This document shows, in pieces, positions 1 through 49,646 of a DNA stretch of 49,646 nt. The stretch is from a virus. Below the pieces are notes generated by a model. The model did not search any database, was not told the origin of the DNA, and worked only from the letters and a program-made list of their open reading frames with translations. The number at the start of each line of letters is the position of its first letter. Positions within the stretch are counted from its first letter, which is position 1. Made by a program: the position numbers and the translations under genes. The DNA lies in IMG/VR virus record IMGVR_UViG_3300045988_091802; one strand, 5' to 3'.

Positions 1-99
1 ATTTTTTTGTACAAACTTCTTGAAGACCAAGAAACGGAACTTATAGGACGCTTTGACACGTTGAAAGAAGCGCAAGAAAAGGTAATAGAAATGACCGAG
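1..99. repeat. Terminal direct repeat: bases 1-99 are identical to 49548-49646
   Basis: Base-by-base comparison of the window ends shows identity. This fits a circular assembly or a short terminal redundancy. Confidence 0.95.
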
Positions 100-543
100 G
101 AAGACGAAGACACAACCGTTTTTGACTTCTACACGGACGAACAGGAATACGAAGAAATAACCGACCGCGTGAAATCATACGCCGACGCTTGCAAGGTATT
201 GGGCATAGAACCCATGAACGAGCAAAACATGAAAGCGCAAGGTTTCAGACCGGACGAAGTAGCCCGGCGCAAGTTGGAAACCATAACGGAAGCACTTAAC
301 GAGGGTTGGAAGCCGGATTGGAACAATACCGACCAATGCAAGTATTACCCTTACTTTTTCATAAGAGAAAACGCCAAAGCGGAAGGTACTGCCGGGCTCT
401 CGTATGCGGTTACGAAGTACGCGGCTACGGTTACGGGTGCGTACGTCGGCTCTCGGCTTTGCTTCCACGATAGCAACACGGCACGTTACGCCGGTAATAC
501 ATTCACGGAACTATACGAACAAATTTTAATAGAGAAGATATGA
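1..543 (+). CDS. DGR variable protein 2, a small non-structural paralog. The true start is ATG 49539 across the junction, giving 181 aa
   Basis: The frame is open from ATG 49539 through the junction to the stop at 543. It contains VR2 (..AGLSYAVTKYAATVTGAYVGSRLCF..). It is a paralog of 46775-47515, sharing SYxDACKVLG and GWKPDWNNxxQxKYYP. Confidence 0.8.
   Translation: MFLYKLLEDQETELIGRFDTLKEAQEKVIEMTEEDEDTTVFDFYTDEQEYEEITDRVKSYADACKVLGIEPMNEQNMKAQGFRPDEVARRKLETITEALNEGWKPDWNNTDQCKYYPYFFIRENAKAEGTAGLSYAVTKYAATVTGAYVGSRLCFHDSNTARYAGNTFTELYEQILIEKI
391..463 (+). repeat. DGR variable repeat VR2, aligned to TR 36433-36505
   Basis: Hand alignment of 73 bp gives 14 mismatches, 13 at TR adenines. 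The exception is TR T36459 versus G417. Confidence 0.85.
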
Positions 544-6863: not shown

Positions 6864-6864
6864 T

Positions 6865-7095: not shown

Positions 7096-7105
7096 AGGCA
7101 GAACA

Positions 7106-7261: not shown

Positions 7262-7263
7262 GT

Positions 7264-7761: not shown

Positions 7762-7780
7762 CGGAAAAAGTGATACGACT

Positions 7781-8086
7781 ATGAACATTAAACAGATTAA
7801 AGAAAAGGTTTTGGGCTTCATTAAGAACATCCCGGCAGACAAAAAGAAGCACCTTATAGCCGGATTTATTGTTTGCGCCATTGTAAGCATGTTCTTTGGC
7901 TACATTATTGGCTTCATTTCGGCGTTGGTAGCCGCTGCTGGTAAAGAAGCCTACGACTACTTTACGAAGAAAGGAACGCCGGAGCTTGCCGATTTCATTT
8001 ACTCGGCGGTAGGCGCGGTTTGTTTCCTTATTGTGTCGGCATTGATTACATTGCTTTTTTACGCTTTTGTCATGCGTTCTATTTAG
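7781..8086 (+). CDS. Small integral membrane protein
   Basis: Three hydrophobic segments: LIAGFIVCAIVSMFFGYIIGFISALVAAA, FIYSAVGAVCFLIVSALITLLFYAFV. Confidence 0.6.
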   Translation: MNIKQIKEKVLGFIKNIPADKKKHLIAGFIVCAIVSMFFGYIIGFISALVAAAGKEAYDYFTKKGTPELADFIYSAVGAVCFLIVSALITLLFYAFVMRSI

Positions 8087-8139
8087 GCTTTTCAAGAAGC
8101 ATCATATAGCTGAGAGCAACGGCGATAGCCGAAGCGGAA

Positions 8140-8169
8140 GGGCGCGGCGACCAAACCACGCCCTTTTTT
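8140..8169 (+). terminator. Rho-independent terminator-like hairpin
   Basis: GGGCG...CGCCC stem followed by TTTTTT. Confidence 0.5.
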
Positions 8170-8194
8170 AATAAACCAATAGCGTAAGATAAAC

Positions 8195-8947: not shown

Positions 8948-8961
8948 AAGAAGGAGGTTTT

Positions 8962-9072
8962 ATGCCAAGTGGAAGCGAAAGCAGAAGCGGCGGTAGCCGG
9001 ATAAGAAGAAGCACCGCAGCGAGCCAAAGGGGTTACGTTCCGTGGAATCCTTCAATGGACACCCCATTTTAG
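8962..9072 (+). CDS. Small S/R/G-rich hypothetical peptide (36 aa)
   Basis: A strong AAGGAGG lies 5 nt upstream of ATG 8962. Too short to be confident. Confidence 0.25.
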   Translation: MPSGSESRSGGSRIRRSTAASQRGYVPWNPSMDTPF

Positions 9073-9137
9073 TAGTGAGTAACACAGAGCCGCACCGACA
9101 GCACAAAGACGCGGCGCGGCTCTTAATTCTATTTCAG

Positions 9138-10565: not shown

Positions 10566-10577
10566 AAACACCGAGAA

Positions 10578-11018
10578 ATGGCAAATGAACAGAATTTACG
10601 CGAGCCGTGGAAACCCGGACAGAGCGGAAACCCGAAAGGGCGACCGAAAAACCGAGTTCCCGAACAACTTGTAACGATATTCGGGAGCAAGGCTAAGGCT
10701 AAGAAGTTCTATTGCCTTAGCGCGACCGAAATAAACGAATGGGAAGCCGCCATACTTACGCTATCAGCCGAAGACTTGAAAGTATTGGCGAAGTGGAGCG
10801 GCGCACCCTCATACCCGAAAGGGCTGGCGATTGCGGTATTAAGCGATATGAAGAACGGAAAGACTACGACGCTCGACAAATTGCGAGAACGCCAATACGG
10901 AAAGCCCACGCAACGGATGGAGGTAACAGGAAAGGATGGCGCGGAACTTATACCGGCGCGGACGCTTACCAAAGAGGAAGCGCAGCAGCTTTTTAAGGAC
11001 TTGCAAGAAAACTACTAA
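10578..11018 (+). CDS. terS: Terminase small subunit (DUF5681-like)
   Basis: PGQSGNPKGRPKN motif, and position directly upstream of terL. Confidence 0.65.
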   Translation: MANEQNLREPWKPGQSGNPKGRPKNRVPEQLVTIFGSKAKAKKFYCLSATEINEWEAAILTLSAEDLKVLAKWSGAPSYPKGLAIAVLSDMKNGKTTTLDKLRERQYGKPTQRMEVTGKDGAELIPARTLTKEEAQQLFKDLQENY

Positions 11019-11021
11019 GGA

Positions 11022-12476
11022 ATGGAGATAAGGGACATAGACGTAATAAAGACGTGGACGCTGCAAAGTACGCTAAACTTTACGCGCTACTTCTTCAAAG
11101 AGAGGTATAAGCGTAAGTTTGTCGTAGGCAAGCACCATGTTAAAATCGCGGAAGCCTTAGACCGAGTATTTCGCGGCGAATCTACGCGCCTTATCATAAA
11201 CATAGCACCACGATACGGAAAGACGGAATTAGCGGTTAAGAACTTCATAGCTATGGGGCTTGCAATAAACCCAAAGGCGAAGTTTATACATTTGTCGTAT
11301 TCCGATGATTTGGCGCGTGACAATTCGCGCGGTGTGCAGGAGATTATACGGGATAGCAGCTACCGGCGTTTGTTTCCCGGAACGATGCCTACAAGCGTGA
11401 ACACGCGCAAATGGTTTACGACGGAAGGCGGCGCACTTTACGCAGTGAGTTCTGCCGGACAGGTAACAGGCTTCGGAGCGGGTTTGGTTGATAAGGAAGA
11501 CGAAGAAGAATTAGCCGCAGAAGTTGAGGAACTAAGCAGCATAGATAACGGGAATTTTGGCGGCGCGATAGTCATAGATGACCCGATTAAGCCGGATGAC
11601 GCAAGAAGCGCGTTAGTACGCGACAAGGTAAACCAAAAGTTTGAAACCACCATACGAAACCGCGTAAACAGCCGGAAGACCCCGATAATAATTATCATGC
11701 AGCGTTTGGACGAAGACGACCTTTGCGGCTATTTGCAACGGTTAGAGCCGGACGAATGGGAGGTTTTAAGCCTTCCAGTTATAGAAACGGACGAAGCCGG
11801 GAAAGAAGTACCGCTTTGGGAGTTCAAACATACCTTAGAGGAACTGCACGACCTTAAAGAAAAAAATTCGTGGGTATTTGAAACGCAGTACATGCAGAAT
11901 CCGAAACCGCTTACAGGCTTGATGTACGAACGTGGTTTTAAGACCTACGAAACGATACCCATAACCCGGAAGCATACGGTTAAATCCTATATAGATACGG
12001 CGGACACGGGCGCAGACTTCCTTTGTTGCATCATCTACATAGAAACGGAAATAGGTAACTTCATTCTTGACGTGTACTATACGCAAGACCCGATGGAAAC
12101 GACAGAGCCGGAAACGGCGCGGCGGCTTTCCAAGTATGAAGTAGAACGGGCTATAATAGAGAGCAACAACGGAGGGCGCGGATTTGCCCGGAATGTGGAA
12201 TCGCAATGCCGTTTGTTGGGCAACCGCAAGACTTCGGTAACGTGGTTTCATCAGTCCGAAAATAAGGACGTGCGCATCTTTAACCATTCGGCGGAAGTGC
12301 AGAACCTAACCTATTTCCCTAAAGGTTGGGAACACTTGTACCCCAAATTCTACAAAGACATAACCCAATATATGAAAGTCGGCAAGAACGCCCACGATGA
12401 CGCGCCGGACGCACTTACGGGTACGGTTGAGAAACGGAGCGGACAGCCGCAGAAGTTGGCAAACATTTTCAGATAA
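11022..12476 (+). CDS. terL: Terminase large subunit
   Basis: ATPase motifs (PRYGKTE, IVIDDPIKPDD) and a C-terminal nuclease-like region (YIDTADTGADF...ESNNGG). Lies upstream of the portal gene. Confidence 0.85.
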   Translation: MEIRDIDVIKTWTLQSTLNFTRYFFKERYKRKFVVGKHHVKIAEALDRVFRGESTRLIINIAPRYGKTELAVKNFIAMGLAINPKAKFIHLSYSDDLARDNSRGVQEIIRDSSYRRLFPGTMPTSVNTRKWFTTEGGALYAVSSAGQVTGFGAGLVDKEDEEELAAEVEELSSIDNGNFGGAIVIDDPIKPDDARSALVRDKVNQKFETTIRNRVNSRKTPIIIIMQRLDEDDLCGYLQRLEPDEWEVLSLPVIETDEAGKEVPLWEFKHTLEELHDLKEKNSWVFETQYMQNPKPLTGLMYERGFKTYETIPITRKHTVKSYIDTADTGADFLCCIIYIETEIGNFILDVYYTQDPMETTEPETARRLSKYEVERAIIESNNGGRGFARNVESQCRLLGNRKTSVTWFHQSENKDVRIFNHSAEVQNLTYFPKGWEHLYPKFYKDITQYMKVGKNAHDDAPDALTGTVEKRSGQPQKLANIFR

Positions 12477-14103: not shown

Positions 14104-16422
14104 ATGCCCGAAAAGGAAAACAACATAATAGCGCAGCTTAGAGGATTTGACGCGGAGCATTACGCGGCAACGGAACGTTACGCCCGGCAGATTGAGCGGC
14201 TATACAATACAGCTTGCGATGAATTTGCACGCATTGGCGCAGGAATAGAAGAAACGGAAACCGTGTTTTCATTCGACAAGCTGCCGAAAACGAGAAAACA
14301 GGCGCAAGGGATATTAACCCGGCTTGTAGGCAAAATGGAAGCCGTCATTACGACCGGGACAAAAGCCGAATGGTTGGCAGCTTGCAAAAAGAACGACGCT
14401 TTTATAGCCGCAATACTACGCACAGCCAAACTGACCAAAGAAGAAGTAGAGCAATACCAAAGCCGAAACCTCGAAGCACTTCGCACGTTCCAACGTCGTA
14501 AGGTTGAAGGATTGGGATTAAGCGAGAGGGTATGGAGGTATGCCGGAGAATTGAAAGACGCTATGGAATTGGGCATAGACGTAGCGTTAGGGGAAGGCAA
14601 GAGCGCACAAGAGTTAAGCCGGGATTTGCGGAGCTACCTCCAAGAACCGCACAGGCTTTATAGGCGTGTGCGTGACAAAGGCGGAAACTTGCGTTTGAGC
14701 AAGGCGGCTAAGTTGTACCATCCCGGACAAGGTGTTTACCGTTCTTCGGCAAAGAACGCGCAAAGGTTGGCTCGGACGGAGGTAAACATGGCATACCGGG
14801 AAAGCGAGTTTTTAAGATGGCAGAAGTTGGATTTTGTTGTAGGCTTGCGCGTCATGCTGAGCAACAACCACACTACGACCAACAGCAAAGGGGAAAAAAT
14901 TCCGCTTGTAGATATTTGCGACGAACTATGGGGCGATTACCCTAAAACGTTCAAGTTTACAGGTTGGCATCCGCAATGCCGTTGCTTTGTTGTGCCTATT
15001 TTGTCGGACTATGACGAATATAACCAAGACAGGGCGAACAGGCTAAAAGCGATTGTTAGGAAAGCGAAGTACGAAAGCCTTCCTTCACGCCGTACCATCA
15101 CGGACGTACCGGCTAAGTTTCGGGAATACATAGACAGTATTAAGGAACGAGCTAAGGGCTGGAAGTCTATGCCCTACTACATTCGGGATAATTTCAAAGG
15201 CGGTAAGATAGAAGGCGGACTAAACGCAAACATACCGACAAAGACGATGAACAACGTAAAACCGTGTACGGAATTTGACAGGGAAATAAACTACCTTAAA
15301 CGTTGGGCATACGCTTTGGGAGGCGATATGTCAAACATTGACGCGCTTAGAACCGCAGGAAACCGGGAAGCATTGGAAGCCGAAATAGAAAAGGTTAGAG
15401 ATGTCATGGACGGCAATTTAGACAAATGGCACGATGCGCAGAACGAACTAAGCCGGGTTATTACGGTAAGCCTAAAAGGGTATTCGGATATACAAAGCGA
15501 GTTCACGAAGATTTTGCAGGACAACGCATCTTCAACAAAAAGATACTACGGAGATTGTATTAGCCGCTTGAAACAGGCGGTAAAAGACGCTTTGGCTAAG
15601 TTGGCAAAGGCAAAGGAAGAAGAAGCCAAAAGCGGAGATAAGCCGCATAAGGCACTACTTAAAAACTACACTACCGAAGCGCAGGTAGATAAGACTTTCA
15701 AGGAGATAAACGACGGGCTTACCGAAAAATGGTTTGAGAACGGCGACCTTAAATTAGGAGTAGAAACGCATAGGGGTAACAACGGCTCTACGTGGATGGA
15801 CGGCAGAACCTACCTAACAACGGATAGGCTTGCACGGGTAAAATCGGCATTGGGCAAAATAGGGCAAGGAAAATCGGCGGAGATTACAGAACTTGAAGCC
15901 GACGCGATGGCTACATTTTGGCACGAGATTACGCACAACAGGAACAAGCGAGGGAACATGTATTTAACAGATACGCAAAGGGCATTTATGGAATTAGCCA
16001 ACGAGTTTGTAGCGCGAAAGTCTTTGCCGGAGTTTTACCGGGTATTGGGCTGCAAAGAAACGCCGCAAGCGCAATTCATAAGCAACCGCAATTCAACAGG
16101 CTATAACGACATGGTTAATAACTACGATTTGGTAATTAGGGAATTGGGACTTAACGCTGATAAGGCATTGGCGACCGTTAGGAAGAATTTGTTTAACGAA
16201 GTTTACTCAGACCAAGCAACCGGGCTAAAACAAGGTCTTATAGATGGAGGACTTAAACGGCTGGACGGAAAGAAAATAAAGGCTTCGGAGCTAAACAGCC
16301 TATTAAAAGCTATAAGGACAACTAAGGGAAGAGTTTATATGAACATAAACGGAGATTGGGTAAAGGAAAGCCGGGAAGAACAAATGGTTAAATGGTTGAA
16401 GAAAAACGGATATTTGGCATAA
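14104..16422 (+). CDS. Head morphogenesis protein (SPP1 gp7/Mu F-like) with a roughly 440-aa C-terminal extension carrying HExxH
   Basis: MuF hallmark GWHPQCRCFVVP is near residue 300. The C-terminal region contains FWHEITHNR...MELANE, which is zincin-like. Confidence 0.75.
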   Translation: MPEKENNIIAQLRGFDAEHYAATERYARQIERLYNTACDEFARIGAGIEETETVFSFDKLPKTRKQAQGILTRLVGKMEAVITTGTKAEWLAACKKNDAFIAAILRTAKLTKEEVEQYQSRNLEALRTFQRRKVEGLGLSERVWRYAGELKDAMELGIDVALGEGKSAQELSRDLRSYLQEPHRLYRRVRDKGGNLRLSKAAKLYHPGQGVYRSSAKNAQRLARTEVNMAYRESEFLRWQKLDFVVGLRVMLSNNHTTTNSKGEKIPLVDICDELWGDYPKTFKFTGWHPQCRCFVVPILSDYDEYNQDRANRLKAIVRKAKYESLPSRRTITDVPAKFREYIDSIKERAKGWKSMPYYIRDNFKGGKIEGGLNANIPTKTMNNVKPCTEFDREINYLKRWAYALGGDMSNIDALRTAGNREALEAEIEKVRDVMDGNLDKWHDAQNELSRVITVSLKGYSDIQSEFTKILQDNASSTKRYYGDCISRLKQAVKDALAKLAKAKEEEAKSGDKPHKALLKNYTTEAQVDKTFKEINDGLTEKWFENGDLKLGVETHRGNNGSTWMDGRTYLTTDRLARVKSALGKIGQGKSAEITELEADAMATFWHEITHNRNKRGNMYLTDTQRAFMELANEFVARKSLPEFYRVLGCKETPQAQFISNRNSTGYNDMVNNYDLVIRELGLNADKALATVRKNLFNEVYSDQATGLKQGLIDGGLKRLDGKKIKASELNSLLKAIRTTKGRVYMNINGDWVKESREEQMVKWLKKNGYLA

Positions 16423-34235: not shown

Positions 34236-34293
34236 AACACTTCGCCAACACTTAGCGGACGTATCAACTTAATACTGCTTATTGATATTTTTG
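34236..34293 (+). promoter_or_regulatory. Conserved promoter-type module P3 upstream of the DGR operon
   Basis: Inverted copy of the 19-mer (AACACTTCGCCAACACTT at 34236-34253), GTATCAACTTAATAC at 34261-34275, TATTTTTG at 34286-34293. ATG at 34317. Confidence 0.6.
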
Positions 34294-34316: not shown

Positions 34317-34577
34317 ATGCAAAACAGAAACGGCGACTTAGTAAGCGCACAAATTTCGGTAGCCGGAACAGTGGACTTTTCCGGCGGAAACTTCCGAATG
34401 GACACGCCTTTTTGCTTGAAGAACGACGGCGAAACGGCGGTAGTGCTTGAAGTGAACCTTTGGGGAATGCCCGAAGGGGAATTTATAAGCACACGGTTTG
34501 AAACGGGTTGGAATCCCGAAATCATACGAGAGATTAAAAAGACAAGTTCAGCAACCGCCCTTGTTTGGGGCTATTAA
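34317..34577 (+). CDS. Hypothetical protein, first gene of the DGR operon
   Basis: 86-aa ORF directly downstream of P3. Confidence 0.55.
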   Translation: MQNRNGDLVSAQISVAGTVDFSGGNFRMDTPFCLKNDGETAVVLEVNLWGMPEGEFISTRFETGWNPEIIREIKKTSSATALVWGY

Positions 34578-34588: not shown

Positions 34589-35920
34589 ATGGGCATATTT
34601 ATAGGTATTGGCAACACGAAGCCAGCATTTCCCTACGATTACTACTACGGGGTGCAAATCAACGTGAATGTAGCGGACACGGCACTAACGAGAGTTGGGC
34701 GACCGGAATTGCACGTAACGCTGCCGGTGCAGTCATTGATGCGCCGTTGTTTGATTAACGACAGCGGAGAGGTAGTAACATACTTGCACCCGACAGACAG
34801 CACCAAGACCGACACGGGAGCGACGGCAGACCTTACGGGAACTACCGGGCAAGTCATGGTAGAGATACCGAAGCACTACCGCAAATTCGAGTTTGACGGG
34901 ACGATCATAACCGCGCTTATTTCCTTATACAACCTTCCGGGCTTCCACGAAGTGCCGAAAATGTATATCAGTGCATACGAAGCGACCATAGACCGGACGG
35001 CAAGCGAAACGCCGAAACTTGCAAGCGTAGTAAACAAAACCGCAAACTTCCGGGGAGGTAACAACAATTCAGCGTGGGACGGTACATATAGAAGCCTGTT
35101 AGGACTTCCGGCAACACAAACAAGCCTTACCAACTTCCGCAAGTATGCGCGGAACAGGGGAGAAGCCGGGTTTAACGGTTGCGGTTGGAATTGCAACCTA
35201 TACGCCGCGCAAGTGGCTATGTATTGGCTTTACGTCATTGAGTACGCAAACCGCAACTGCCAAGCCGCATACAACGCAGAACCTACAAGCGAAGGGTACA
35301 AACAAGGCGGATTGGGCGACGGCGTTACCACTATAAACAGTGGGAAATGGAACACTTACAACAGCTATTACCCGTTTGTGCCTTGCGGCTTTACAAACAG
35401 TTTGGGAAACCGTACCGGCGTAGTAGAGTTCACGATGCCGGACGAATACGACACGGGGGTAGTAACCAAAGTAAACGTACCTTCATATAGAGGTGTGGAA
35501 AATCCGTTTGGGCATTTGTGGAAGTGGACGGACGGCTGCAAGTGCGAGATACAGAGCGACACGGACGGAGCTTTATCGAAGTTCTACGTTTGCTTAGACC
35601 CTTCCAAGTTCCAAGACAGTAGTTATAACGACTACGATATGCGCGGAGAATTGCCGAGAAAAGAGGGGTACGTTAAGCGCATGATGATAGGCGAATACGG
35701 CGACATCATGCCGACGGAGGTAGGCGCAAGTTCTACGACCCACTTTGCGGACTACTTCTATACCAATATACCGACTTCCGGCGCGGCTATGAGGGGTGTC
35801 TTGTTCGGTGGTGGCGCGTCTAACGGCGCGGGTGCCGGGCTCTCGTGTGCGCGTACGGGTAGCGCGGCTGCGTCTGCGGGTGCGTACTTCGGCTCTCGGC
35901 TTTGCTTTATCCCGGCGTAG
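34589..35920 (+). CDS. DGR variable (target) protein 1, a putative receptor-binding tail fibre with a C-terminal VR
   Basis: The C-terminus ..GVLFGGGASNGAGAGLSCARTGSAAASAGAYFGSRLCFIPA is encoded by VR1. Located after the tail tip genes. I prefer ATG 34589 over the TTG at 34565. Confidence 0.85.
   Translation: MGIFIGIGNTKPAFPYDYYYGVQINVNVADTALTRVGRPELHVTLPVQSLMRRCLINDSGEVVTYLHPTDSTKTDTGATADLTGTTGQVMVEIPKHYRKFEFDGTIITALISLYNLPGFHEVPKMYISAYEATIDRTASETPKLASVVNKTANFRGGNNNSAWDGTYRSLLGLPATQTSLTNFRKYARNRGEAGFNGCGWNCNLYAAQVAMYWLYVIEYANRNCQAAYNAEPTSEGYKQGGLGDGVTTINSGKWNTYNSYYPFVPCGFTNSLGNRTGVVEFTMPDEYDTGVVTKVNVPSYRGVENPFGHLWKWTDGCKCEIQSDTDGALSKFYVCLDPSKFQDSSYNDYDMRGELPRKEGYVKRMMIGEYGDIMPTEVGASSTTHFADYFYTNIPTSGAAMRGVLFGGGASNGAGAGLSCARTGSAAASAGAYFGSRLCFIPA
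35794..35906 (+). repeat. DGR variable repeat VR1, aligned to the full TR
   Basis: Hand alignment of 113 bp to 36393-36505 gives 25 mismatches, all at TR adenines. Confidence 0.9.
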
Positions 35921-35945
35921 CATTACGTCACGAAACGGAAACACG

Positions 35946-35978
35946 CCCCAACCGCCGCGCCATTATTGGCGGTTGGGG
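35946..35978 (+). other. Perfect 11-bp stem hairpin downstream of VR1
   Basis: CCCCAACCGCC - 11 nt - GGCGGTTGGGG, about 40 nt after the end of VR1. Confidence 0.6.
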
Positions 35979-36007
35979 TATAACAGGAACTAAAAACAAA
36001 TTCAGTC

Positions 36008-36367
36008 ATGAACGAAAATAACAATAACCGAAAGGAACAGCAGGAGGATGACGGCAGTCTGTCGTTTTTGGCGATACCGCAAGACGAAGGAAACAAGCAT
36101 TTCAACTGCCGGGAAACAACCCAGCAGAAACTAATCAACCTTACGTTTTGGGTTTGCGACTTCATAGAGGGAGTTAAAACGAAATTCGGCGCGGAACGCT
36201 TCTTAGTTAAGATAAAGAAGAACCGGGATGACAAAGACAGCGAAGCCGAAAAGTTCTTTACCAATTCAAGCGAAATAAAATACGTTTTGAAGGAAATAAA
36301 GAAACGGAACGCTTTCCCTCGCCGGGTTACCATGAGGGCAAGCGGAACGCGCTATTACTTCGAGTGA
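36008..36367 (+). CDS. Candidate DGR accessory protein, in the Avd position but not obviously Avd-like
   Basis: 119 aa, between the target gene and the TR. The basic C-terminus fits. The sequence does not look like a four-helix bundle to me. Confidence 0.45.
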   Translation: MNENNNNRKEQQEDDGSLSFLAIPQDEGNKHFNCRETTQQKLINLTFWVCDFIEGVKTKFGAERFLVKIKKNRDDKDSEAEKFFTNSSEIKYVLKEIKKRNAFPRRVTMRASGTRYYFE

Positions 36368-36392
36368 AAAGTATAACGGTTGTTTGTTCTTC

Positions 36393-36505
36393 GGGTGTCT
36401 TGTTCGGTGGTAACGCGAATAACAGCGCGAATGCCGGGCTCTCGTATGCGAATACGAATAACACGGCTACGAATACGAATGCGAACATCGGCTCTCAGCT
36501 ATACT
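36393..36505 (+). repeat. DGR template repeat (TR)
   Basis: Adenine-rich. In the VR frame it reads GVLFGGNANNSANAGLSYANTNNTATNTNANIGSQ, with 10 AAY codons. It matches VR1, VR2 and VR3. Confidence 0.9.
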
Positions 36506-36626
36506 GATACTTTTTGTAAAGCGATATAAGGACAAAGACCGCGCCGACAAAAAGGCGGAAAACAGTAAACATTAACGGGATTTGGTAGGGAGACCGAAGA
36601 ACCCCATTTAATCAGCAAAGCAAGTT

Positions 36627-37661
36627 ATGAAAAGGTTGGGCAACCTATACGATAAAATTATAAGTTTGGAAAACTTACGGATCGCAGACAAGCGGGCTCG
36701 TAAGGGCAAACTTAACACCTACGGCGTTAAGGTACATGACCGGCACGCCGAAGCCGACCTTTTGGCTTTGCACGAAGAATTGAAGGCAGGAACTTACAAG
36801 ACTTCGGAATATAGCACCTTTTTTATTTACGAACCGAAAGAACGTGAGATTTTCAGACTACCGTACTTTCCCGACCGCATCGTACACCACGCAGTAATGA
36901 ACGTGTTAGAACCCGTATGGGTGTCCATATTCACGGCGGACACATACAGTTGCATCAAAGGGCGAGGAATACAGGCGGCAGCGGACAAGTTACGGCGCGT
37001 GATAGACAGGGACAAGCCCGGTTGCGCCTATTGTCTGAAAATTGACATACGGAAGTTTTACCCTTCCATCGACCACGCTATATTAAAGCGGATTGTTCGC
37101 CGGAAGATTAAGGACACACGGCTACTTAGACTTCTTGACGAAATAATAGACAGCGCGGACGGACTGCCCATCGGGAACTACCTAAGCCAATTCTTAGCAA
37201 ACCTCATGCTTGCGTACTTTGACCATTGGGTTAAAGAGACCAAGCGCGTAAGGTATTATTTCAGATACGCCGACGATATTGTAGTATTGCACAGCGACAA
37301 AAGGGTATTACGCGCCTTGCTTGCCGACTTTGAACGGTATTTGAACACCGAACTAAACCTGTATGTCAAAGACAACAAACAGATTTTCCCGGTAGCGAAA
37401 GACCACAAAGACAGGCACGGGCGCGGCATTGACTTTTTGGGATATGTGTTTTACCACAACGAAACACGGCTAAGAAAGCGTATCAAACAGAACTTTTGCC
37501 GGAAGGTAGACAAGTTGAGGAAGCGGAAGAAACCGATAGGCGAAGCGCAGTTCATGCAAGCCGTAGCCGCGTGGTGGGGATGGGCGAAACACAGCGATAG
37601 CGAGTATTTTATCAACAAGTTAAATAAAATTTCACCTTATGAAATCAAATTCAAACGTTAG
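36627..37661 (+). CDS. DGR reverse transcriptase
   Basis: RT motifs including the DGR-typical IGNYLSQ and the catalytic YADD (RYADDIVVL). 344 aa, 121 nt downstream of the TR. Confidence 0.9.
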   Translation: MKRLGNLYDKIISLENLRIADKRARKGKLNTYGVKVHDRHAEADLLALHEELKAGTYKTSEYSTFFIYEPKEREIFRLPYFPDRIVHHAVMNVLEPVWVSIFTADTYSCIKGRGIQAAADKLRRVIDRDKPGCAYCLKIDIRKFYPSIDHAILKRIVRRKIKDTRLLRLLDEIIDSADGLPIGNYLSQFLANLMLAYFDHWVKETKRVRYYFRYADDIVVLHSDKRVLRALLADFERYLNTELNLYVKDNKQIFPVAKDHKDRHGRGIDFLGYVFYHNETRLRKRIKQNFCRKVDKLRKRKKPIGEAQFMQAVAAWWGWAKHSDSEYFINKLNKISPYEIKFKR

Positions 37662-38022
37662 ACCGGCTATTATCCAAGATTTGGGTAACGGCTCATTCCA
37701 TTACAACTACAACGTAACGGAAAGGAAGATAGAAGACGAAGAAGTAGGCGAAAAGACTGTTTACGACTACGATACGGTACAGGTGTGGGAAAAGCCGACC
37801 TACGACAACCTTACACGCGCCATCATACGCAGCGAGATAGACGAAACCGAAGAATTTTCTTTGATTAACGACTACTACGCCGCGCAGTTGGGAGTAGAAA
37901 AGGACGAAGACCGCAAGACGAAAGCAGTAAACGACTACAAAGATTACCTCGCGCACGTTGCGGACATAAAACAGATGGTGAGGGACGACCTCGCTACGGT
38001 TGGGTTGGACGAAAGCGCATAG
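37639..38022 (+). CDS. Hypothetical acidic protein
   Basis: 127-aa ORF overlapping the 3' end of the RT gene by 23 nt. Confidence 0.5.
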   Translation: MKSNSNVRPAIIQDLGNGSFHYNYNVTERKIEDEEVGEKTVYDYDTVQVWEKPTYDNLTRAIIRSEIDETEEFSLINDYYAAQLGVEKDEDRKTKAVNDYKDYLAHVADIKQMVRDDLATVGLDESA

Positions 38023-44694: not shown

Positions 44695-46755
44695 ATGAAT
44701 AAACAAGTAATCATTAAGCGTTTGACGCTTGTAAACTTCAAGGGTTTACGGAATGTCGCAATAGATTTTAGCGACAATGTTACAACCATTAGCGGACGTA
44801 ACGGAACTGGTAAAACAACTATCAAAGACGCTTTTAGTTGGCTTCTTTGGGGTAAGAACAGCGAAGGCGACACCGATAGCAAGTTTGGCATCAAGACCAA
44901 CGACGCGGACGGTAATTTTATTCCCGACCTCGAACACGGCGTTACGGGTGTGTTTGAAATCATAGACAAAGAAACGGGAGCGGTTGAAACCGTAGAACTT
45001 CGCCGCGTACTTGTAGAAGAATGGAAAGTACCCAACGGGGAAACAAAGCGTGTGCTGAAAGGACACCACACCGACTTTTTCTATAACGGTGTGCCATTGA
45101 AGACGAAAGCGGAATACGAAGCGCGGATTAACGCCATCATTCCCGAAGCAGTCTTTAAGATTATTACAGACCCCTACTATTTCCTTACGCTTCATTGGAA
45201 GGCACAGCGTGAAATGCTTTTGCAGATAGCAGGGAACGTAAGCGAAGAAGAAGTAGCGAGAGGTAGCGAACGTTTTGCCCTATTGCTTGCGCAGCTTACC
45301 GGAAAATCATTGGAAGACTATAAGCGAGAGGTAGCCGCAAAGAAAGCCAAGGTAAACGAACAACTCGAAAAGATACCGACAGCCATAAACGCAATTACAC
45401 AGGTTACGCCGGAAGCACCGGATTACGAAGCGTTGGAGAAAGAAAAGGCAGCTTTGGAAGTGGAGCTTACACAAATAGACGAATCGGTAGCATCGGAAGC
45501 GGAAGCCAACCGGATAGCCTACGAGAAAGCATCGAAGACGCAAGCGGAGATTAACGCGAAACGGACACAGCAACAGAAACTGTTATTTGAAGCCAAAGAC
45601 AAGGCGAGAAGCGAAGCGTATAAGAAAAACGAAGCCTACAACAAGGCAGAACGTGAACTGCGCCAAGTGGAATCAGACCAAACGAACGAAGAACGGCGGT
45701 ACAACGCGGAGCGTTCCCGGCTTCAAGATGACATCAGACGCACGGAAGAAAACAAAAGCAGATACAAGGCGCAACAGGACGAACTGCGCGAAAAGTGGTA
45801 TTCGGTAAGTGCGGAAGAATTTACAGACACTTCCAACCTTGTATGTCCGTTGTTCAAACACGTATGCGCAGACCGGGAAGCATTAGAAAAATACGAAGCA
45901 GACCGGGAAGCAGCTCGAAACAAGTTCTACGAAGACAAACAGGCGCGGCTCGACAACATAAACAAGACCGGAACGCAGCTTACCCAAACGATAGAGGAAC
46001 AAGATGCGGAAATAGCACGGCTTCAAGGATTGTTAGCCGAAACGGAAGAAAAGCACAAAACCGAAGTTTCCGGCTTCGCGGAAAAGCGCGAACAGTTGAA
46101 AAAGACGATGGACGCTAACCCACGTGTAAGCACAGAACCGAATATCAAAGGGGAAGACATACCCGAATGGGTTACGCTTCAAAGCGAGATAGAAACGCTT
46201 TCCGCCGGGCTTCCGAAACAGGATAGCACAACAGCGACCAATACCTCCGTACTTCGCAAGCGTAAGGCAGAAATAACCGCACGGCTTGACGAAGTAAAAC
46301 AGAAATTGAACATTCGCGCAACCATTGAAACCAACGAAAAGCGGATTAAGGAGCTTAAAGCGGAAGCGGAAACGCTGGCGCAGGAAAAAGCCAACTTGCA
46401 GACCGAAGAAACCACAATAGACGATTTTGTTACGGCGCAGATGAACGAAGTAGAACGGCGCGTAAACGCATTGTTTAGCCGGGTACAGTTCAAGATGTAC
46501 CGGACGCAGATAGAAGACGCGAAGCAAGTACCGGACTGCATTTGCTACATAGACGGCGTGAAGTATTCAGACAAGAACGCCGCCGGGAAAGTAAACGCCG
46601 GGCTTGACGTGATTAACACGCTTTGCGCGTTCCACGGGGTAAGCGCACCTATTTTCGTGGATAACGCAGAAAGCATCAACGAATTTATACCGGTAAACAG
46701 CCAACTCGTAAAGTTGGTGGTAACTACCGAAGACTTCAAGGTAAACAATTTCTAA
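44695..46755 (+). CDS. SMC/SbcC/Rad50-like AAA ATPase (recombination)
   Basis: N-terminal Walker A (ISGRNGTGKTT), long coiled coil, C-terminal ..IFVDNAESI... Confidence 0.75.
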   Translation: MNKQVIIKRLTLVNFKGLRNVAIDFSDNVTTISGRNGTGKTTIKDAFSWLLWGKNSEGDTDSKFGIKTNDADGNFIPDLEHGVTGVFEIIDKETGAVETVELRRVLVEEWKVPNGETKRVLKGHHTDFFYNGVPLKTKAEYEARINAIIPEAVFKIITDPYYFLTLHWKAQREMLLQIAGNVSEEEVARGSERFALLLAQLTGKSLEDYKREVAAKKAKVNEQLEKIPTAINAITQVTPEAPDYEALEKEKAALEVELTQIDESVASEAEANRIAYEKASKTQAEINAKRTQQQKLLFEAKDKARSEAYKKNEAYNKAERELRQVESDQTNEERRYNAERSRLQDDIRRTEENKSRYKAQQDELREKWYSVSAEEFTDTSNLVCPLFKHVCADREALEKYEADREAARNKFYEDKQARLDNINKTGTQLTQTIEEQDAEIARLQGLLAETEEKHKTEVSGFAEKREQLKKTMDANPRVSTEPNIKGEDIPEWVTLQSEIETLSAGLPKQDSTTATNTSVLRKRKAEITARLDEVKQKLNIRATIETNEKRIKELKAEAETLAQEKANLQTEETTIDDFVTAQMNEVERRVNALFSRVQFKMYRTQIEDAKQVPDCICYIDGVKYSDKNAAGKVNAGLDVINTLCAFHGVSAPIFVDNAESINEFIPVNSQLVKLVVTTEDFKVNNF

Positions 46756-46774: not shown

Positions 46775-47515
46775 ATGAATTACAAAGAAATCAAGTCCTA
46801 CGAGGACGCTTGTAAGGTTTTGGGCGTTCAGCCCATCAGTGAAAACGCGGTAGCAGCTTTCCCGGCAGAAGACCGAAAAAGTATGTTAGCTTACCATAAG
46901 CTGACAATAATAGCACGAGCCATTAACGGAGGGTGGAAGCCGGATTGGAACAACAGAAGCCAATACAAGTATTACCCAGTATTCTACTACGAACATGCCG
47001 GGCTCTCGTATGCGGCTGCGAATTACGCGGCTTCGAATACGGTTGCGAACTTCGGCTCTCGGCTTTGCTTTCAAACGGAAGCGATGAGCGACTACGCCGC
47101 CGCCACGTTCGCCGACCTATACACGGACTTCTATTGCCTTCCGGCTTCGGTGGAGAAAGAAGAAAGCCAACAGAGTAACAAGCAGCCCGGCGACTTCTTG
47201 AAAATGGCAACTGATATTATAGAAACACAGTTGCAGCCGTTGGCGCAGGAAAAGAAAACGCGCGGTGTTGTGCTGATTGCTTGCGACGCGGACACGACGG
47301 ACGAAAAAGGAGAAAGCGCAACCGGGGCAATTATTGGAATTGTCGGAAACGGAAAAGCGTTGGCACACGGAGTAGCCGAACTTATGACGCGGAAAGAATC
47401 CGCACCGCTTGTAAAACAGGCTACGGAACTTATAGCGATGCAAAGACTACAAGAGCGGATTAAGCAAGAGGGCTCGAAGTTCCTCGCGGAATTATTCACA
47501 CAACAAGAAAAATAG
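46775..47515 (+). CDS. DGR variable protein 3, a small non-structural paralog with the VR in mid-protein
   Basis: Contains VR3 (..AGLSYAAANYAASNTVANFGSRLCF..) at residues about 75-99 of 246. Paralog of the junction-spanning protein. Confidence 0.8.
   Translation: MNYKEIKSYEDACKVLGVQPISENAVAAFPAEDRKSMLAYHKLTIIARAINGGWKPDWNNRSQYKYYPVFYYEHAGLSYAAANYAASNTVANFGSRLCFQTEAMSDYAAATFADLYTDFYCLPASVEKEESQQSNKQPGDFLKMATDIIETQLQPLAQEKKTRGVVLIACDADTTDEKGESATGAIIGIVGNGKALAHGVAELMTRKESAPLVKQATELIAMQRLQERIKQEGSKFLAELFTQQEK
46997..47069 (+). repeat. DGR variable repeat VR3, aligned to TR 36433-36505
   Basis: Hand alignment of 73 bp gives 12 mismatches, all at TR adenines. Confidence 0.88.
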
Positions 47516-49538: not shown

Positions 49539-49646
49539 ATGAAAAAGATTTTTTTGTACAAACTTCTTGAAGACCAAGAAACGGAACTTATAGGACGCTT
49601 TGACACGTTGAAAGAAGCGCAAGAAAAGGTAATAGAAATGACCGAG
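49539..49646 (+). CDS. 5' end of DGR variable protein 2, continuing at base 100 of the window through the circular junction
   Basis: ATG 49539 (MKKIFLYKLLEDQ...). Bases 49548-49646 duplicate 1-99. Confidence 0.75.
   Translation, partial: MKKIFLYKLLEDQETELIGRFDTLKEAQEKVIEMTE

What the first reader, a model, noticed from the sequence alone, without database searches (positions are those of the whole stretch)
34589..37661. Complete diversity-generating retroelement: target/VR1, accessory ORF, TR and RT
The 344-aa ORF at 36627-37661 has RT motifs, including the DGR-typical IGNYLSQ and the catalytic YADD. Just upstream, a 113-bp adenine-rich template repeat (36393-36505) aligns without gaps to the last 113 coding bp region (35794-35906) of the 443-aa ORF 34589-35920. 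By hand alignment there are 25 mismatches, and every one sits at an adenine of the TR. In the VR reading frame the TR carries 10 AAY codons. That is the classic DGR design for adenine-specific mutagenesis without creating stop codons. The target ends in ..FGSRLCF and follows the tail-tip genes, which fits a diversified receptor-binding protein. The cassette has its own promoter-type module (34236-34293).
Basis: partly seen in the sequence, partly recalled or inferred. Interest (0 to 1): 0.75.

Follow-up and report, generated by a model that had tools for sequence, protein, structure and literature searches.

The report
Phage DGR with three diversified targets
A temperate gut Bacteroidales phage carries a working diversity-generating retroelement that rewrites adenine-templated codons in its tail receptor-binding protein and in two small non-structural proteins, and it uses an undescribed helper protein in place of the usual Avd cofactor.

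Summary
TR 36393-36505 and VR 35794-35906 align without gaps, and all 25 mismatches fall on TR adenines (P~2e-20). The TR carries 10 AAY codons, and the RT has the IGNYLSQ and YADD motifs. The RT's best solved relative is the Bordetella DGR RT (E=1e-43, against 7e-19 for group II intron RTs). Public metagenomes show the element works. Codons opposite TR adenines carry 5-11 alleles. A second sample has the same TR and a different VR. In one lineage, a TR that lost 12 adenines passed its new bases to two target loci.

1. There are two more VRs (46995-47069 and 388-463) in small paralogous proteins in the early-gene region. Both are hypervariable in nature.
2. The accessory ORF is not Avd, and no Avd is encoded anywhere in the genome. 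It is a basic, beta-rich protein of an unnamed family. It sits next to a DGR-type RT in 154 of 155 informative loci and is fused to the RT C-terminus in Hankyphage-type elements.
3. The TR-RT spacer holds covariation-supported RNA helices.

The C-type lectin fold could not be tested because the model was poor. Verdict: a genuine, active DGR, and an Avd-less, multi-target variant of a known kind.

The parts
34286..34293 (+). Bacteroidetes-type -7 promoter motif TATTTTTG (TAnnTTTG) in the 150-nt gap after the tail-tip gene, 23 nt before the ATG of the 86-aa ORF
   Evidence: the motif is present 20-25 nt upstream of the ATG in 63 of 65 related loci, even where the flanks have diverged; no sigma-70-type match here. 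Function as a promoter is inferred, not shown.
34317..34577 (+). 86-aa acidic ORF (pI 4.6) immediately upstream of the target; conserved partner of the target gene, function unknown
   Evidence: phrog_26422, E=3e-46. Found upstream in 63 free-type loci. An equivalent small ORF precedes the target in phage Versailles.
34589..35920 (+). Target gene 1: 443-aa tail protein, the presumed receptor-binding protein, with VR1 at its C-terminus
   Evidence: phrog_5302 'tail protein', E=8e-140. Identical to DAP71425.1 'tail collar fiber protein'. Its 90%-identity clusters hold 1,403 to 11,593 distinct members. Homologs occur in crAss-like phages and Bacteroides phage Versailles.
35794..35906 (+). VR1, 113 nt. 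Codons 409-434 are hypervariable. The last three TR-adenine codons (437-439, within GSRLCF) are fixed.
35946..35978 (+). Perfect 11-bp stem with an 11-nt loop, 26 nt after the target stop codon. Probably a terminator, attenuator or RNA-stability element. It is not a general homing signal.
   Evidence: z=-2.3. No comparable hairpin follows VR2 or VR3 (z=+0.5 for both).
36008..36367 (+). Accessory gene: 119 aa, basic (pI 9.1; core 9.7), beta-rich, not Avd. Proposed RT/RNA cofactor.
   Evidence: No Pfam, NCBIfam or PDB hit. phrog_19665, function unknown. At least 474 clusters, all unnamed. AF2 core pLDDT about 85, with four strands and one helix. 38% identical to residues 339-420 of the Hankyphage RT. 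Adjacent to or fused with an RT in 154 of 155 informative loci. Its confident structural matches in the viral library are phage RTs.
36378..36386 (+). GGTTGTTTG box, conserved 6 nt upstream of the TR. Possibly the 5' edge of the DGR RNA or a weak promoter element.
   Evidence: invariant or near-invariant columns across 39 diverse loci. Its role is not tested.
36393..36505 (+). Template repeat (TR), 113 nt, 30 adenines, 10 AAY codons. Donor for VR1 (full length) and for VR2 and VR3 (3' 75 nt).
   Evidence: An identical TR with a different VR1 occurs in an independent sample (L006). Natural marker transfer from an altered TR to two targets is seen in the L094 lineage.
36539..36558 (+). Spacer RNA hairpin P1 (CGCC/GGCG stem), followed by a conserved A-rich tract
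   Evidence: 3 of 4 pairs show compensatory changes across 26 sequences.
36574..36620 (+). Spacer RNA element: an outer helix enclosing GGTA-[hairpin, often GNRA-capped]-GAAG, then the invariant AGCAAAG (36614-36620) 6 nt before the RT start codon
   Evidence: Covariance model R1 hits once per free-type locus. All 8 pairs covary: score 0.39, against 0.13 or less for slid controls and 0.12 for shuffles, with 0 of 500 shuffles reaching it. No Rfam family matches.
36627..37661 (+). DGR reverse transcriptase, 344 aa, with IGNYLSQ and YADD motifs
37639..38022 (+). 127-aa acidic ORF (pI 4.4) whose start overlaps the RT stop. It travels with the cassette. A role in the DGR is uncertain.
   Evidence: Present directly after the RT in 103 of 113 free-type loci. 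Homologs follow the RT, or its remnant, in phage Versailles and crAss cr111_1. phrog_11557, function unknown.
46775..47515 (+). Target gene 2: 246-aa protein of unknown function (phrog_11581) in the early/recombination gene block, with no signal peptide apparent
   Evidence: Its 90% cluster holds 1,085 distinct members.
46995..47069 (+). VR2 (codons 74-99, mid-protein). It matches TR 36431-36505.
   Evidence: 12 of 12 mismatches are at TR adenines, P=2.5e-8. Positions 81, 83, 84, 88 and 90 carry 8-9 alleles among 15 members, all at TR-adenine codons.
1..543 (+). Target gene 3: a paralog of target 2 (48% identity). The true product is 183 aa. Its ATG lies at 49539, and the gene spans the circular-assembly junction (1-99 equals 49548-49646).
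388..463 (+). VR3. It matches TR 36430-36505.
   Evidence: 14 of 15 mismatches are at TR adenines, P=1.5e-8. Positions 133, 140, 142, 147, 149 and 151 carry 9-11 alleles among 23 homologs.

Best explanation
This is an active diversity-generating retroelement in a complete temperate siphovirus-type phage of Bacteroidales (about 49.5 kb). Shown: one adenine-rich template repeat (36393-36505) is the information donor for three variable repeats. VR1 lies at the C-terminus of the tail receptor-binding protein. VR2 and VR3 lie inside two small paralogous proteins encoded among the early/recombination genes. In natural populations only the codons opposite TR adenines are hypervariable. An altered TR passes its new bases to more than one target. 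Inferred by analogy with the Bordetella phage BPP-1 DGR: an RNA made of the TR plus the structured 121-nt spacer is bound by the RT, and cDNA synthesis starts within the spacer and runs through the TR, misincorporating opposite adenines. The cDNA then replaces the VR from a 3' boundary near GGCTCTC. Downstream of that boundary every VR carries the same VR-specific sequence GGCTTTGCTT, where the TR reads AGCTATACTGA. This is an IMH/IMH*-like asymmetry that normally protects the TR. The 5' crossover depends on homology, so VR2 and VR3 receive only the 3' 75 nt. The AAY-rich design gives about 1e16 (VR1) and about 1e12 (VR2, VR3) protein variants without creating stop codons. Inferred with moderate confidence (about 0.6): the 119-aa basic beta-rich protein encoded in the Avd position is the RT's cofactor and takes the place of Avd. 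This rests on its near-universal linkage to these RTs and on its covalent fusion to the RT C-terminus in Hankyphage-type DGRs. VR1 most probably adapts host-receptor binding. What VR2 and VR3 bind is unknown.
For: TR/VR1: 113 nt ungapped, 25 of 25 mismatches at TR adenines, P=1.8e-20. VR2: 12 of 12. VR3: 14 of 15. RT: best solved relative is 8ub7 at E=1e-43 over residues 2-326 (I recognise it from memory as the BPP-1 DGR RT; the tool names it only 'Reverse transcriptase'), against group II intron RT at 7e-19 and retron-type RT at 2e-17. It has the IGxxxSQ and YADD motifs. Activity: codons opposite TR adenines carry 5-11 alleles, against 3 or fewer elsewhere, in all three targets. Clusters at 90% identity hold 1,085 to 11,593 distinct sequences. 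L006 has an identical TR and RT but a different VR1, with 22 A-only differences. In the L094 genome the TR lost 12 adenines, and VR1 carries the new base at 12 of 12 and the distal small-target VR at 11 of 11 of the changed positions. The sister genome matches at 2 of 11. Accessory protein: of 160 loci, 113 have it 241-368 nt upstream of the RT, 41 have it contiguous with the RT C-terminus (36 of 37 tested are in frame), 5 are cut by contig ends and 1 lacks an RT. 104 of the 113 free-type loci have a strict A-only TR/VR pair in the same gene order. It is 38% identical to Hankyphage RT residues 339-420. Four long representatives are RVT_1 plus this domain. The viral fold search's top hits are phage RTs. 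No Avd in any of 97 ORFs. Spacer RNA: covariation-supported helices. Boundary: all three VRs and all lineages share ...TTTGCTT(T), while TR 3' ends differ.
Against: No direct measurement of cDNA or of new variants was possible, so 'active' rests on population data. The target's C-type lectin fold was not demonstrated: the AF2 model has pLDDT 56 overall and about 22 in the VR, and neither the Foldseek nor the PDB profile search gave a hit. The accessory protein's fold has no significant solved relative (best PDB E=0.5, weak OB/SSB-like hits), so RNA or RT binding is inferred only. BPP-1-type features are incomplete. There is no (G/C)14-type IMH, and only VR1 has a downstream hairpin. The 3' boundary is not absolute, because one natural VR3 variant reads GSQLCF with the TR's CAG codon. 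The TR is not strictly invariant. In L005 VR1 does not track the altered TR. Homing is therefore not continuous in every lineage.
Confidence: 0.9

Rival explanations
1. The DGR is real, but the 119-aa ORF is not part of its mechanism. It would be a hitch-hiking phage gene, or a domain with another role such as packaging or tail assembly, and the element would be an accessory-free (Architecture A) DGR.
For: No homology to Avd, HRDC or MutS-like proteins. The fold is unassigned. Phage Versailles has a 42%-identical RT with neither the free gene nor the fused domain. Wu et al. report that 29% of DGRs lack accessory genes (PMC5758913).
Against: The domain is next to or fused with an RT in 154 of 155 informative loci, across phages that are otherwise unrelated: siphovirus-type and Mu-like Hankyphage. 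It occupies the canonical Avd slot between VR and TR. It is fused in frame to the RT in 36 of 37 fused cases. It resembles Avd in size and charge (14 kDa, pI 9.1).
Confidence: 0.2
2. The cassette is a fossil. The TR/VR pattern and the population diversity record past activity, and the element in this particular genome no longer works.
For: In L005 VR1 has not been re-templated since its TR changed. Decayed relatives exist, for example crAss cr111_1, which keeps the target and only a 115-aa RT fragment.
Against: The RT is full length with intact catalytic motifs. The TR keeps 30 adenines. A sample with identical RT and TR carries a different VR1. Genomes about 100% identical outside the repeats differ within them. 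All components are under conservation in more than 100 loci.
Confidence: 0.07
3. VR2 and VR3 are not genuine DGR targets. They would be paralogous remnants of a duplicated VR-like motif that merely resemble the TR.
For: They lie mid-protein rather than at the C-terminus, match only 75 nt of the TR, have no downstream hairpin, and their proteins have no recognised domain.
Against: Mismatches are A-only: 12 of 12 and 14 of 15. Hypervariability in nature is confined to TR-adenine codons. In the L094 genome the distal VR carries 11 of 11 marker bases of the altered TR. They share the same VR-specific 3' end as VR1. A structural plus non-structural target pair has a precedent in Quimbyvirus (PMC8008677).
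Confidence: 0.03
4. The RT belongs to a group II intron, retron or defence RT, and the repeats are an unrelated coincidence.
For: NCBIfam's best model is group_II_RT_mat, at 123 bits and far below its 300-bit cutoff. Drt3a and retron models also give sub-threshold hits.
Against: NCBIfam has no DGR-RT model in the hit list, so these are generic RT similarities below their cutoffs. The PDB search ranks the DGR RT 25 orders of magnitude better. There is no maturase or endonuclease domain, no intron RNA and no Rfam hit. The A-only repeat pattern has P~1e-20.
Confidence: 0.01

Closest known systems
Bordetella phage BPP-1 DGR (mtd-avd-TR-brt)
   Same: A phage-borne element with a target at the end of the tail module and the VR at the target's C-terminus. 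Gene order is VR, accessory, TR, spacer, RT. Mismatches are adenine-only, the codon design is AAY, and the TR and VR differ at their 3' ends. The RT is homologous over its full length (8ub7, E=1e-43).
   Different: There is no Avd. A beta-rich, non-homologous protein sits in its place. There are three targets instead of one. No (G/C)14 IMH is present. A downstream hairpin follows only one of the three VRs. The spacer RNA elements are not shared at sequence level and have no Rfam family.
Hankyphage (Bacteroides phage p00, BK010646) DGR
   Same: Bacteroidales host range, and an RT 34% identical over residues 1-323. The accessory domain is homologous at 38% identity, E=8e-13. The order is VR then TR then RT, and an acidic ORF follows the RT.
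   Different: In Hankyphage the domain is fused to the RT C-terminus (434-aa RT), whereas here it is a separate gene upstream of the TR. The Hankyphage target is a roughly 2,200-aa protein unrelated to this one. Hankyphage is a Mu-like transposable phage. The spacer RNA model R1 does not hit it. The ORF that the Hankyphage papers call 'Avd' (64 aa) was nominated on size and pI (PMC6199706) and has no Avd homology in Pfam.
Avd-less DGR lineages of Wu et al. 2018 (Lineage 3/3A, Architectures A and E, 'CH1' accessory; PMC5758913)
   Same: Associated with Bacteroides and relatives, and no avd. That survey noted that about 20% of DGR RTs carry unexplained C-terminal extensions of up to about 150 aa, and inferred an Avd-independent mechanism.
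   Different: The 119-aa protein here is basic (pI 9.1), whereas CH1 is 160-169 aa and acidic (pI 4.7), so it is not CH1 by those criteria. The acidic ORF after the Hankyphage-type RT (158-172 aa, pI 5.0) fits the CH1 description better. Sequences of CH1 and PAG1-4 were not available to me, so identity with one of the 'PAG' candidates cannot be excluded.
Quimbyvirus DGR (Benler et al. 2021, PMC8008677)
   Same: A gut Bacteroidetes phage DGR with one target after the tail genes and another distal to the structural module, presumed to be non-structural.
   Different: That phage is about 75 kb and myovirus-like, its RT is split over three frames, and its distal target has a recognised C-type lectin domain next to defence and counter-defence genes. 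Here there are two small distal paralogs with no recognised domain, next to SbcC-like and MBL-hydrolase genes.
crAss-like phage and Bacteroides phage Versailles target/RT modules
   Same: The target protein is 36-44% identical to 'tail proteins' of cr111_1, cr55_1, cr50_1 and others, and 38% identical to that of Versailles. The Versailles RT is 42% identical. The acidic ORF after the RT is shared.
   Different: cr111_1 retains only an RT fragment. Versailles lacks the accessory domain altogether. Neither record annotates a DGR in the features I read.

Membership tests
Diversity-generating retroelement (DGR) | RT of the DGR clade, with the (I/L/V)GxxxSQ motif 4 and YxDD catalytic motif, and closer to DGR RTs than to group II intron or retron RTs | tested here: met
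   IGNYLSQ and YADD are present. Best PDB match is 8ub7 at E=1e-43 over the full length, against 7e-19 for group II intron and 2e-17 for retron-type RTs. phrog_1423 at E=2e-126. No formal phylogeny was run.
Diversity-generating retroelement (DGR) | A TR/VR pair whose differences lie at TR adenines | tested here: met
   25 of 25 (P=1.8e-20), 12 of 12 and 14 of 15 for VR1 to VR3.
Diversity-generating retroelement (DGR) | One-way transfer of information from TR to VR, with the VR variable in populations at TR-adenine sites | tested here: met
   Hypervariable codons coincide with TR-adenine codons in all three targets. Same TR, different VR in L006. Marker bases of an altered TR are found in two VRs of the same genome. 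Caveat: the TR itself is occasionally altered at adenines.
Diversity-generating retroelement (DGR) | The VR is displayed in a C-type lectin (or Ig) fold of the variable protein | tested here: inconclusive
   The AF2 model has pLDDT 56 overall and about 22 in the VR. Foldseek and the PDB profile search gave no usable hit. There is no Pfam domain. Only the C-terminal position and a G-x-R-L/C-type end motif are consistent, and the motif resemblance is from memory.
Diversity-generating retroelement (DGR) | IMH at the VR 3' end differing from IMH* at the TR 3' end | tested here: inconclusive
   All VRs end ...GGCTCTCGGCTTTGCTT, and the TR ends ...GGCTCTCAGCTATACTGA. The VR version is constant across lineages and almost invariant in populations. 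There is no BPP-1-like (G/C)14 block, and function is not testable here.
Diversity-generating retroelement (DGR) | Adenine-mutagenic cDNA synthesis and retrohoming shown biochemically or genetically | not testable with these tools
   This needs wet-lab work or read-level time-series data.
Avd (accessory variability determinant, PF05635 four-helix bundle) | Sequence homology to Avd / 23S rRNA-IVS family proteins | tested here: not met
   No Pfam or NCBIfam hit for 36008-36367. The profile of 24 homologs has no PDB hit at E<=10. No Avd-family hit appears among the families listed for the window's 97 ORFs of 90-260 aa (top 25 of 35 families shown, E<=0.003).
Avd (accessory variability determinant, PF05635 four-helix bundle) | All-helical four-helix-bundle fold | tested here: not met
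   The AF2 model (core pLDDT about 85) has four beta strands and one helix. There is no helical-bundle match in the PDB or BFVD searches.
Avd (accessory variability determinant, PF05635 four-helix bundle) | Small basic protein encoded between VR and TR and working with the RT | tested here: met
   14 kDa, pI 9.1, encoded in the VR-TR interval. Linked or fused to the RT in 154 of 155 loci. This is a functional resemblance, not family membership.
CH1 accessory (Wu et al. 2018) | 160-169 aa, acidic (pI 4.7 +/- 0.2), found in DGRs without avd, HRDC or MSL | tested here: not met
   The accessory ORF is 119 aa with pI 9.1. The 127-aa ORF after the RT is acidic (pI 4.4) but shorter. Its homology to the Hankyphage-type 160-aa acidic ORF is not established (hhalign probability 5%).
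Group II intron / retron / defence RT systems | Score at or above the family cutoff, with the associated intron RNA, msr-msd or effector | tested here: not met
   All NCBIfam hits are far below their cutoffs, for example 123 bits against 300. No Rfam hit occurs in the window.

The most novel reading that the evidence does not exclude
The 119-aa protein would define a previously uncharacterised DGR cofactor family. It is free-standing in the Avd slot in one large clade and fused to the RT C-terminus in Hankyphage-type elements, and it would replace Avd in Bacteroidales phage DGRs, working with a clade-specific structured spacer RNA. The same element would also diversify two cytoplasmic early-region proteins, so this phage would use targeted hypermutation for intracellular phage-host conflict (for example binding host defence factors) as well as for adsorption. 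A further point: the TR itself is occasionally rewritten at adenines in nature and then re-templates all targets.
Probability: 0.4. Interest if true: 0.7.

Novelty: new variant of a known kind. Interest (0 to 1): 0.5.

Why it matters
DGRs are the only known natural system of targeted protein hypermutation in prokaryotes, and nearly all mechanistic knowledge comes from the Avd-dependent Bordetella element. About a quarter of DGRs lack Avd, and how they work is an open question raised in the 2018 survey. This locus provides a concrete, abundant and compact candidate answer. It has a small basic beta-rich protein that is genetically inseparable from the RT and is fused to it in Hankyphage, one of the most widespread human gut phages. 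It also has a conserved, covariation-supported spacer RNA. That makes the Avd-independent mechanism directly testable using three defined parts: the RT, the 119-aa protein and a 234-nt RNA. The three-target layout and the natural 'marker transfer' lineage show that a single TR serves loci more than 10 kb apart. They also show that phage DGRs diversify non-virion proteins, which matters for understanding gut phage-host arms races and for engineering DGR-based mutagenesis tools.

Tried and rejected
1. Megablast of the cassette against 50,697 phage records gave no match. Relatives appear only at protein level.
2. Structure route to the C-type lectin question. The AF2 model of the target from 29 homologs was poor (pLDDT 56). 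Foldseek against the PDB gave nothing meaningful, and the profile against PDB sequences gave zero hits. The question stays open.
3. Foldseek of the accessory model against the PDB gave no significant match. The best was E=0.5, with weak OB/SSB-type hits that I treat only as a hint.
4. I asked whether the acidic ORFs after the RT in the two clades are homologous, and so equal to CH1. BLASTP gave E=4.9 and hhalign gave probability 5%. Homology is not shown. The Hankyphage one is DUF4376.
5. CH1 and PAG sequences from the supplement of Wu et al. are not held.
6. The hairpin after VR1 as a general homing element: rejected, because it is absent after VR2 and VR3.
7. A sigma-70 promoter at 34236-34293: none found. 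It is replaced by the Bacteroidetes -7 motif.
8. MAFFT plus RNAalifold on the whole spacer found only P1. The second element needed anchor-based extraction and a covariance model. That alignment is fitted to the model, so it leans towards the structure, but the slid controls still fall far below.
9. cr7_1 RT comparison: the gene has in-frame stops under table 11, which suggests a recoded phage, so the comparison was abandoned.
10. Assembly chimera as the cause of altered TRs: judged unlikely. The TR and VRs share exact words of about 15 nt at most (by my reading of the alignments), the same allele occurs in two independent assemblies, and in L094 the altered bases are also present in two VRs.
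11. Exact look-up of the VR3 protein failed because the gene spans the contig junction.

Full report
**1. Checking the observation**

The ORF map shows the 344-aa ORF at 36627-37661, with LPIGNYLSQ and RYADD (coordinates). A 119-aa ORF lies at 36008-36367. The target ORF ends at 35920, with a TTG at 34565 and an ATG at 34589. The 443-aa ATG form is the protein on record as DAP71425.1.

MAFFT aligns 36393-36505 to 35794-35906 without gaps. The repeat finder returns the same pair as its top family. A script counted 25 mismatches, all at TR adenines. The TR has 30 A in 113 nt, giving hypergeometric P=1.8e-20. The substitutions are A>G 17, A>T 5 and A>C 3. The TR has 10 AAY codons in the VR frame. 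No adenine substitution can create a stop codon. The 27 adenines in 17 codons of the hypervariable zone allow about 1e16 proteins.

**2. What the proteins are**

*RT.* It matches Pfam RVT_1 and phrog_1423 at E=2e-126. The decisive comparison is against solved structures. 8ub7 matches residues 2-326 at E=1e-43. Group II intron RTs reach 7e-19 and retron-type RTs 2e-17. The tool calls 8ub7 only 'Reverse transcriptase'; I recognise the 328-aa chain from memory as the Bordetella phage BPP-1 DGR RT. NCBIfam offers only sub-threshold generic RT hits.

*Target.* It matches phrog_5302 'tail protein' at E=8e-140 and has no Pfam domain. It follows a Dit-like protein and a 1337-aa Prophage_tail protein. 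Its homologs are 'tail proteins' of crAss-like phages (36-44% identity) and of Bacteroides phage Versailles (38%).

*Genome.* The window is a complete temperate genome. It encodes a large terminase, portal, major head protein and tape measure, a GH108 endolysin and an integrase of the Bacteroidetes type. A 99-nt terminal direct repeat shows circular assembly. L004 shows that the window is a whole JGI contig. Isolate genomes carrying close relatives of the cassette are all Bacteroidales: Alistipes putredinis, Paramuribaculum intestinale, Barnesiella and Bacteroides faecichinchillae.

**3. Evidence that the element works**

- **Cluster sizes.** The protein database clusters at 90% identity, yet single clusters of the target hold 1,403, 5,148, 11,593 and 1,726 distinct sequences.
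- **VR1 variability.** Among 15 members of each cluster, positions 409, 411, 412, 415, 420, 422, 424, 425, 429, 431, 433 and 434 carry up to 11 alleles. All are TR-adenine codons. No position outside the VR has more than 3.
- **Same template, different VR.** An independent sample (L006) encodes the identical RT and an identical TR, but a different VR1 with 22 A-only differences.
- **Natural marker transfer.** In the L094 genome the TR differs from its sisters L093 and L095 at 12 positions, all A>N. VR1 of that genome carries the new base at 12 of 12 of these positions. A small-target VR on the same 43.8-kb contig (L174) carries it at 11 of 11. Both differ from that TR only at its remaining adenines. 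The sister genome's VR matches at 2 of 11. This shows that the TR is the donor for at least two loci.

**4. Two more targets outside the finding**

Scanning the window with the TR while tolerating mismatches only at adenines found two further copies.

| Repeat | Window | Matches TR | Mismatches at TR adenines | P |
|---|---|---|---|---|
| VR2 | 46995-47069 | 36431-36505 | 12 of 12 | 2.5e-8 |
| VR3 | 388-463 | 36430-36505 | 14 of 15 | 1.5e-8 |

Both are in frame inside two paralogs. These are 48% identical to each other (E=1e-34) and unrelated to the tail protein apart from the VR. The first is the 246-aa ORF at 46775-47515. The second is a 183-aa protein whose ATG lies at 49539 and which spans the assembly junction. 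Both belong to phrog_11581, function unknown. They have no Pfam or PDB relative. They sit among early and recombination genes, including an SbcC-like ATPase and an MBL hydrolase.

Both are hypervariable in nature, exactly at TR-adenine codons. VR2 has 8-9 alleles among 15 sequences, and its cluster holds 1,085 members. VR3 has 9-11 alleles among 23 sequences. A structural plus non-structural target pair was described for Quimbyvirus (PMC8008677). This arrangement is therefore a new example and not a new principle.

**5. The 3' boundary**

The last three TR/VR1 mismatches (CAG>CGG, CTA>CTT, TAC>TGC) are at adenines but are invariant in every cluster (GSRLCF). They are shared by all three VRs. 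In relatives whose TR 3' ends differ (...CGCCAATGATTT...CGGAATTACTGA), the VR still ends ...TTTGCTTT, and every difference is again at a TR adenine.

I read this as an IMH/IMH*-like asymmetry, with the usual transfer boundary near GGCTCTC. One natural VR3 variant reads GSQLCF, the TR's own codon, so the boundary is leaky. The 11-bp hairpin at 35946-35978 follows only VR1. Nothing comparable follows VR2 or VR3. It is more likely a transcriptional or RNA element than a homing signal.

**6. The accessory protein is not Avd**

*Negative evidence.* It has no Pfam, NCBIfam or PDB match, whether searched as a single sequence or as a 24-member profile. No Avd-family hit appears for any of the 97 ORFs of 90-260 aa in the genome.

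*Properties.* It is 14 kDa with pI 9.1, which is like Avd in size and charge. The AF2 model (core pLDDT about 85) is beta-rich, with four strands and one helix. Foldseek finds no significant solved relative, only weak OB/SSB-like hits.

*Family and linkage to the RT.*
- The family is large and entirely unnamed: at least 474 clusters and 189 representatives at 50% identity.
- It aligns to residues 339-420 of the 434-aa Hankyphage RT (38% identity, E=8e-13). The window's RT aligns to Hankyphage residues 1-323.
- Four long representatives are RVT_1 plus this domain at the C-terminus.
- The confident matches of the model in the viral structure library are phage RTs.
- In 160 loci fetched from GTDB genomes and IMG/VR, 113 have the free gene 241-368 nt upstream of an RT. 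Another 41 have it contiguous with the RT (36 of 37 tested are in frame), 5 are truncated and 1 lacks an RT.
- 104 of the 113 free-type loci have a strict adenine-only TR/VR pair in the order VR, accessory, TR, RT.

*Literature.* Wu et al. (PMC5758913) noted Avd-less lineages, including a Bacteroides-specific one, and unexplained RT C-terminal extensions. They inferred an Avd-independent mechanism. Their CH1 accessory (160-169 aa, pI 4.7) does not fit this protein. The Hankyphage papers nominate a 64-aa ORF as 'Avd' on size and pI (PMC6199706; PMC12135933), but it has no Avd homology in Pfam. I found no description of this domain in the papers I searched.

**7. The RNA side**

The intergenic region from the accessory stop to the RT start was aligned for 39 diverse loci. 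It contains these elements:
- A conserved GGTTGTTTG box 6 nt before the TR.
- Hairpin P1 (36539-36558), with compensatory changes at 3 of 4 pairs.
- An A-rich tract.
- A second element at 36574-36620.
- An invariant AGCAAAG before the RT ATG.

A covariance model of the second element hits once per free-type locus. It does not hit Hankyphage-type loci or Versailles. All 8 pairs show double-sided changes. The covariation score is 0.39, against 0.13 or less for slid controls and 0.12 for shuffles (0 of 500 reach it). The caveat is that this alignment is fitted to the model. Rfam has nothing in the window. By analogy with the BPP-1 spacer, this is the likely RT/cofactor binding and priming region. 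That is an inference.

**8. Other points**

*Promoter.* The promoter claim is partly right. There is no sigma-70 match. A Bacteroidetes -7 motif, TAnnTTTG, lies at 34286-34293. It is conserved in 63 of 65 relatives, 20-25 nt before the ATG of the 86-aa ORF.

*Acidic ORF after the RT.* A 127-aa acidic ORF overlaps the RT stop and accompanies the cassette in 103 of 113 free-type loci. It also occurs in Versailles and cr111_1. Its role is open.

*TR erosion.* The TR is not strictly invariant.
- L005 and L009 share one allele although they come from different studies. L008 carries another.
- These TRs differ from the window's at 10-11 positions, all at adenines and all in the 3' two-thirds.
- The 100 nt upstream and 121 nt downstream of the TR are identical in all three. 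L005 is otherwise about 100% identical to the window over 4 kb.
- Across 15 groups of near-identical loci, 97 of 117 variable columns involve an A.
- In L005 VR1 has not yet followed the change. In L094 both VRs examined have followed it.

Whether the erosion comes from leaky self-homing or from VR-to-TR conversion is unresolved.

**9. Verdict**

It belongs to a large Bacteroidales-phage clade that lacks Avd and carries a different RT-linked cofactor candidate. It has three targets and a clade-specific structured spacer RNA. I rate it a new variant of a known kind, with interest 0.5.

Noticed in passing
L005:9767-9879, L008:508-620, L009:141-253, L094 (TR), versus window 36393-36505: The template repeat is itself polymorphic at adenines among otherwise identical genomes ('TR erosion'). 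10-12 A>N changes are confined to the 3' two-thirds of the TR. The same allele occurs in two independent assemblies. Across 15 groups of near-identical loci, 97 of 117 variable columns involve an A. This suggests occasional self-homing or VR-to-TR conversion.
   Followed up: partly
L094 and L174 (same IMG/VR contig 3300045988_079289), versus L093 and L180: A natural marker-transfer experiment. A TR that lost 12 adenines has passed its new bases to VR1 (12 of 12) and to a distal small-target VR (11 of 11). The remaining adenines still vary.
   Followed up: yes
window 1-99 and 49548-49646: A 99-nt terminal direct repeat shows that the contig is a circular assembly of about 49,547 bp. The VR3 target gene (ATG at 49539) spans the junction.
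   Followed up: yes
window 37639-38022; L001:3788-4273: An acidic ORF directly follows the RT in both clades: 127 aa with pI 4.4 here, and 158-172 aa with pI about 5 (DUF4376) in Hankyphage-type loci. The latter fits the published description of the 'CH1' DGR accessory. Homology between the two is not established (hhalign probability 5%).
   Followed up: partly
L003:5920-6267 (crAss-like phage cr111_1): A decayed DGR. A target homolog (44% identity) is followed by only a 115-aa C-terminal RT fragment and a homolog of the window's ORF at 37639-38022.
   Followed up: partly
P0446-P0460 (VR2 target cluster) and P0461-P0486 (VR3 target homologs): One VR2 variant reads FYCAAAG instead of FYYENAG upstream of the usual VR start. 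This fits a longer 5' conversion tract that brought in TR-derived codons. One VR3 variant reads GSQLCF, so transfer reached the 3'-terminal TR adenine.
   Followed up: no
window 36378-36386: A GGTTGTTTG box 6 nt upstream of the TR is invariant or nearly so across 39 diverse loci. It could mark the 5' end or the promoter of the DGR RNA.
   Followed up: no
window 14104-16422: The 772-aa head-morphogenesis protein also matches a PHROG annotated as Bxa ADP-ribosyltransferase (E=3.5e-77). It may be a virion-packaged toxin or effector domain.
   Followed up: no
L013, L014, L015, L017, L089 and others: MAG bins labelled Clostridia, Bifidobacteriaceae, Christensenella, Akkermansia and Acholeplasma carry this phage cassette on short or phage-sized contigs. 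These are most likely binning contamination and not real hosts. All isolate genomes with the cassette are Bacteroidales.
   Followed up: no
L172:5778-6737 (crAss-like phage cr7_1 RT): The annotated RT has three in-frame stop codons under table 11, which is consistent with stop-codon reassignment in this phage. Its predicted structure was among the top fold matches to the accessory model.
   Followed up: partly
window 3961-4914, 9042-10565 and 44695-46755: The genome encodes a PAPS-reductase-like protein, a ParB-nuclease/DNA-methyltransferase fusion and an SbcC-like ATPase. An SSB (PF00436) is also encoded in the window, but its ORF was not identified. These form the context for the two small DGR targets.
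   Followed up: no
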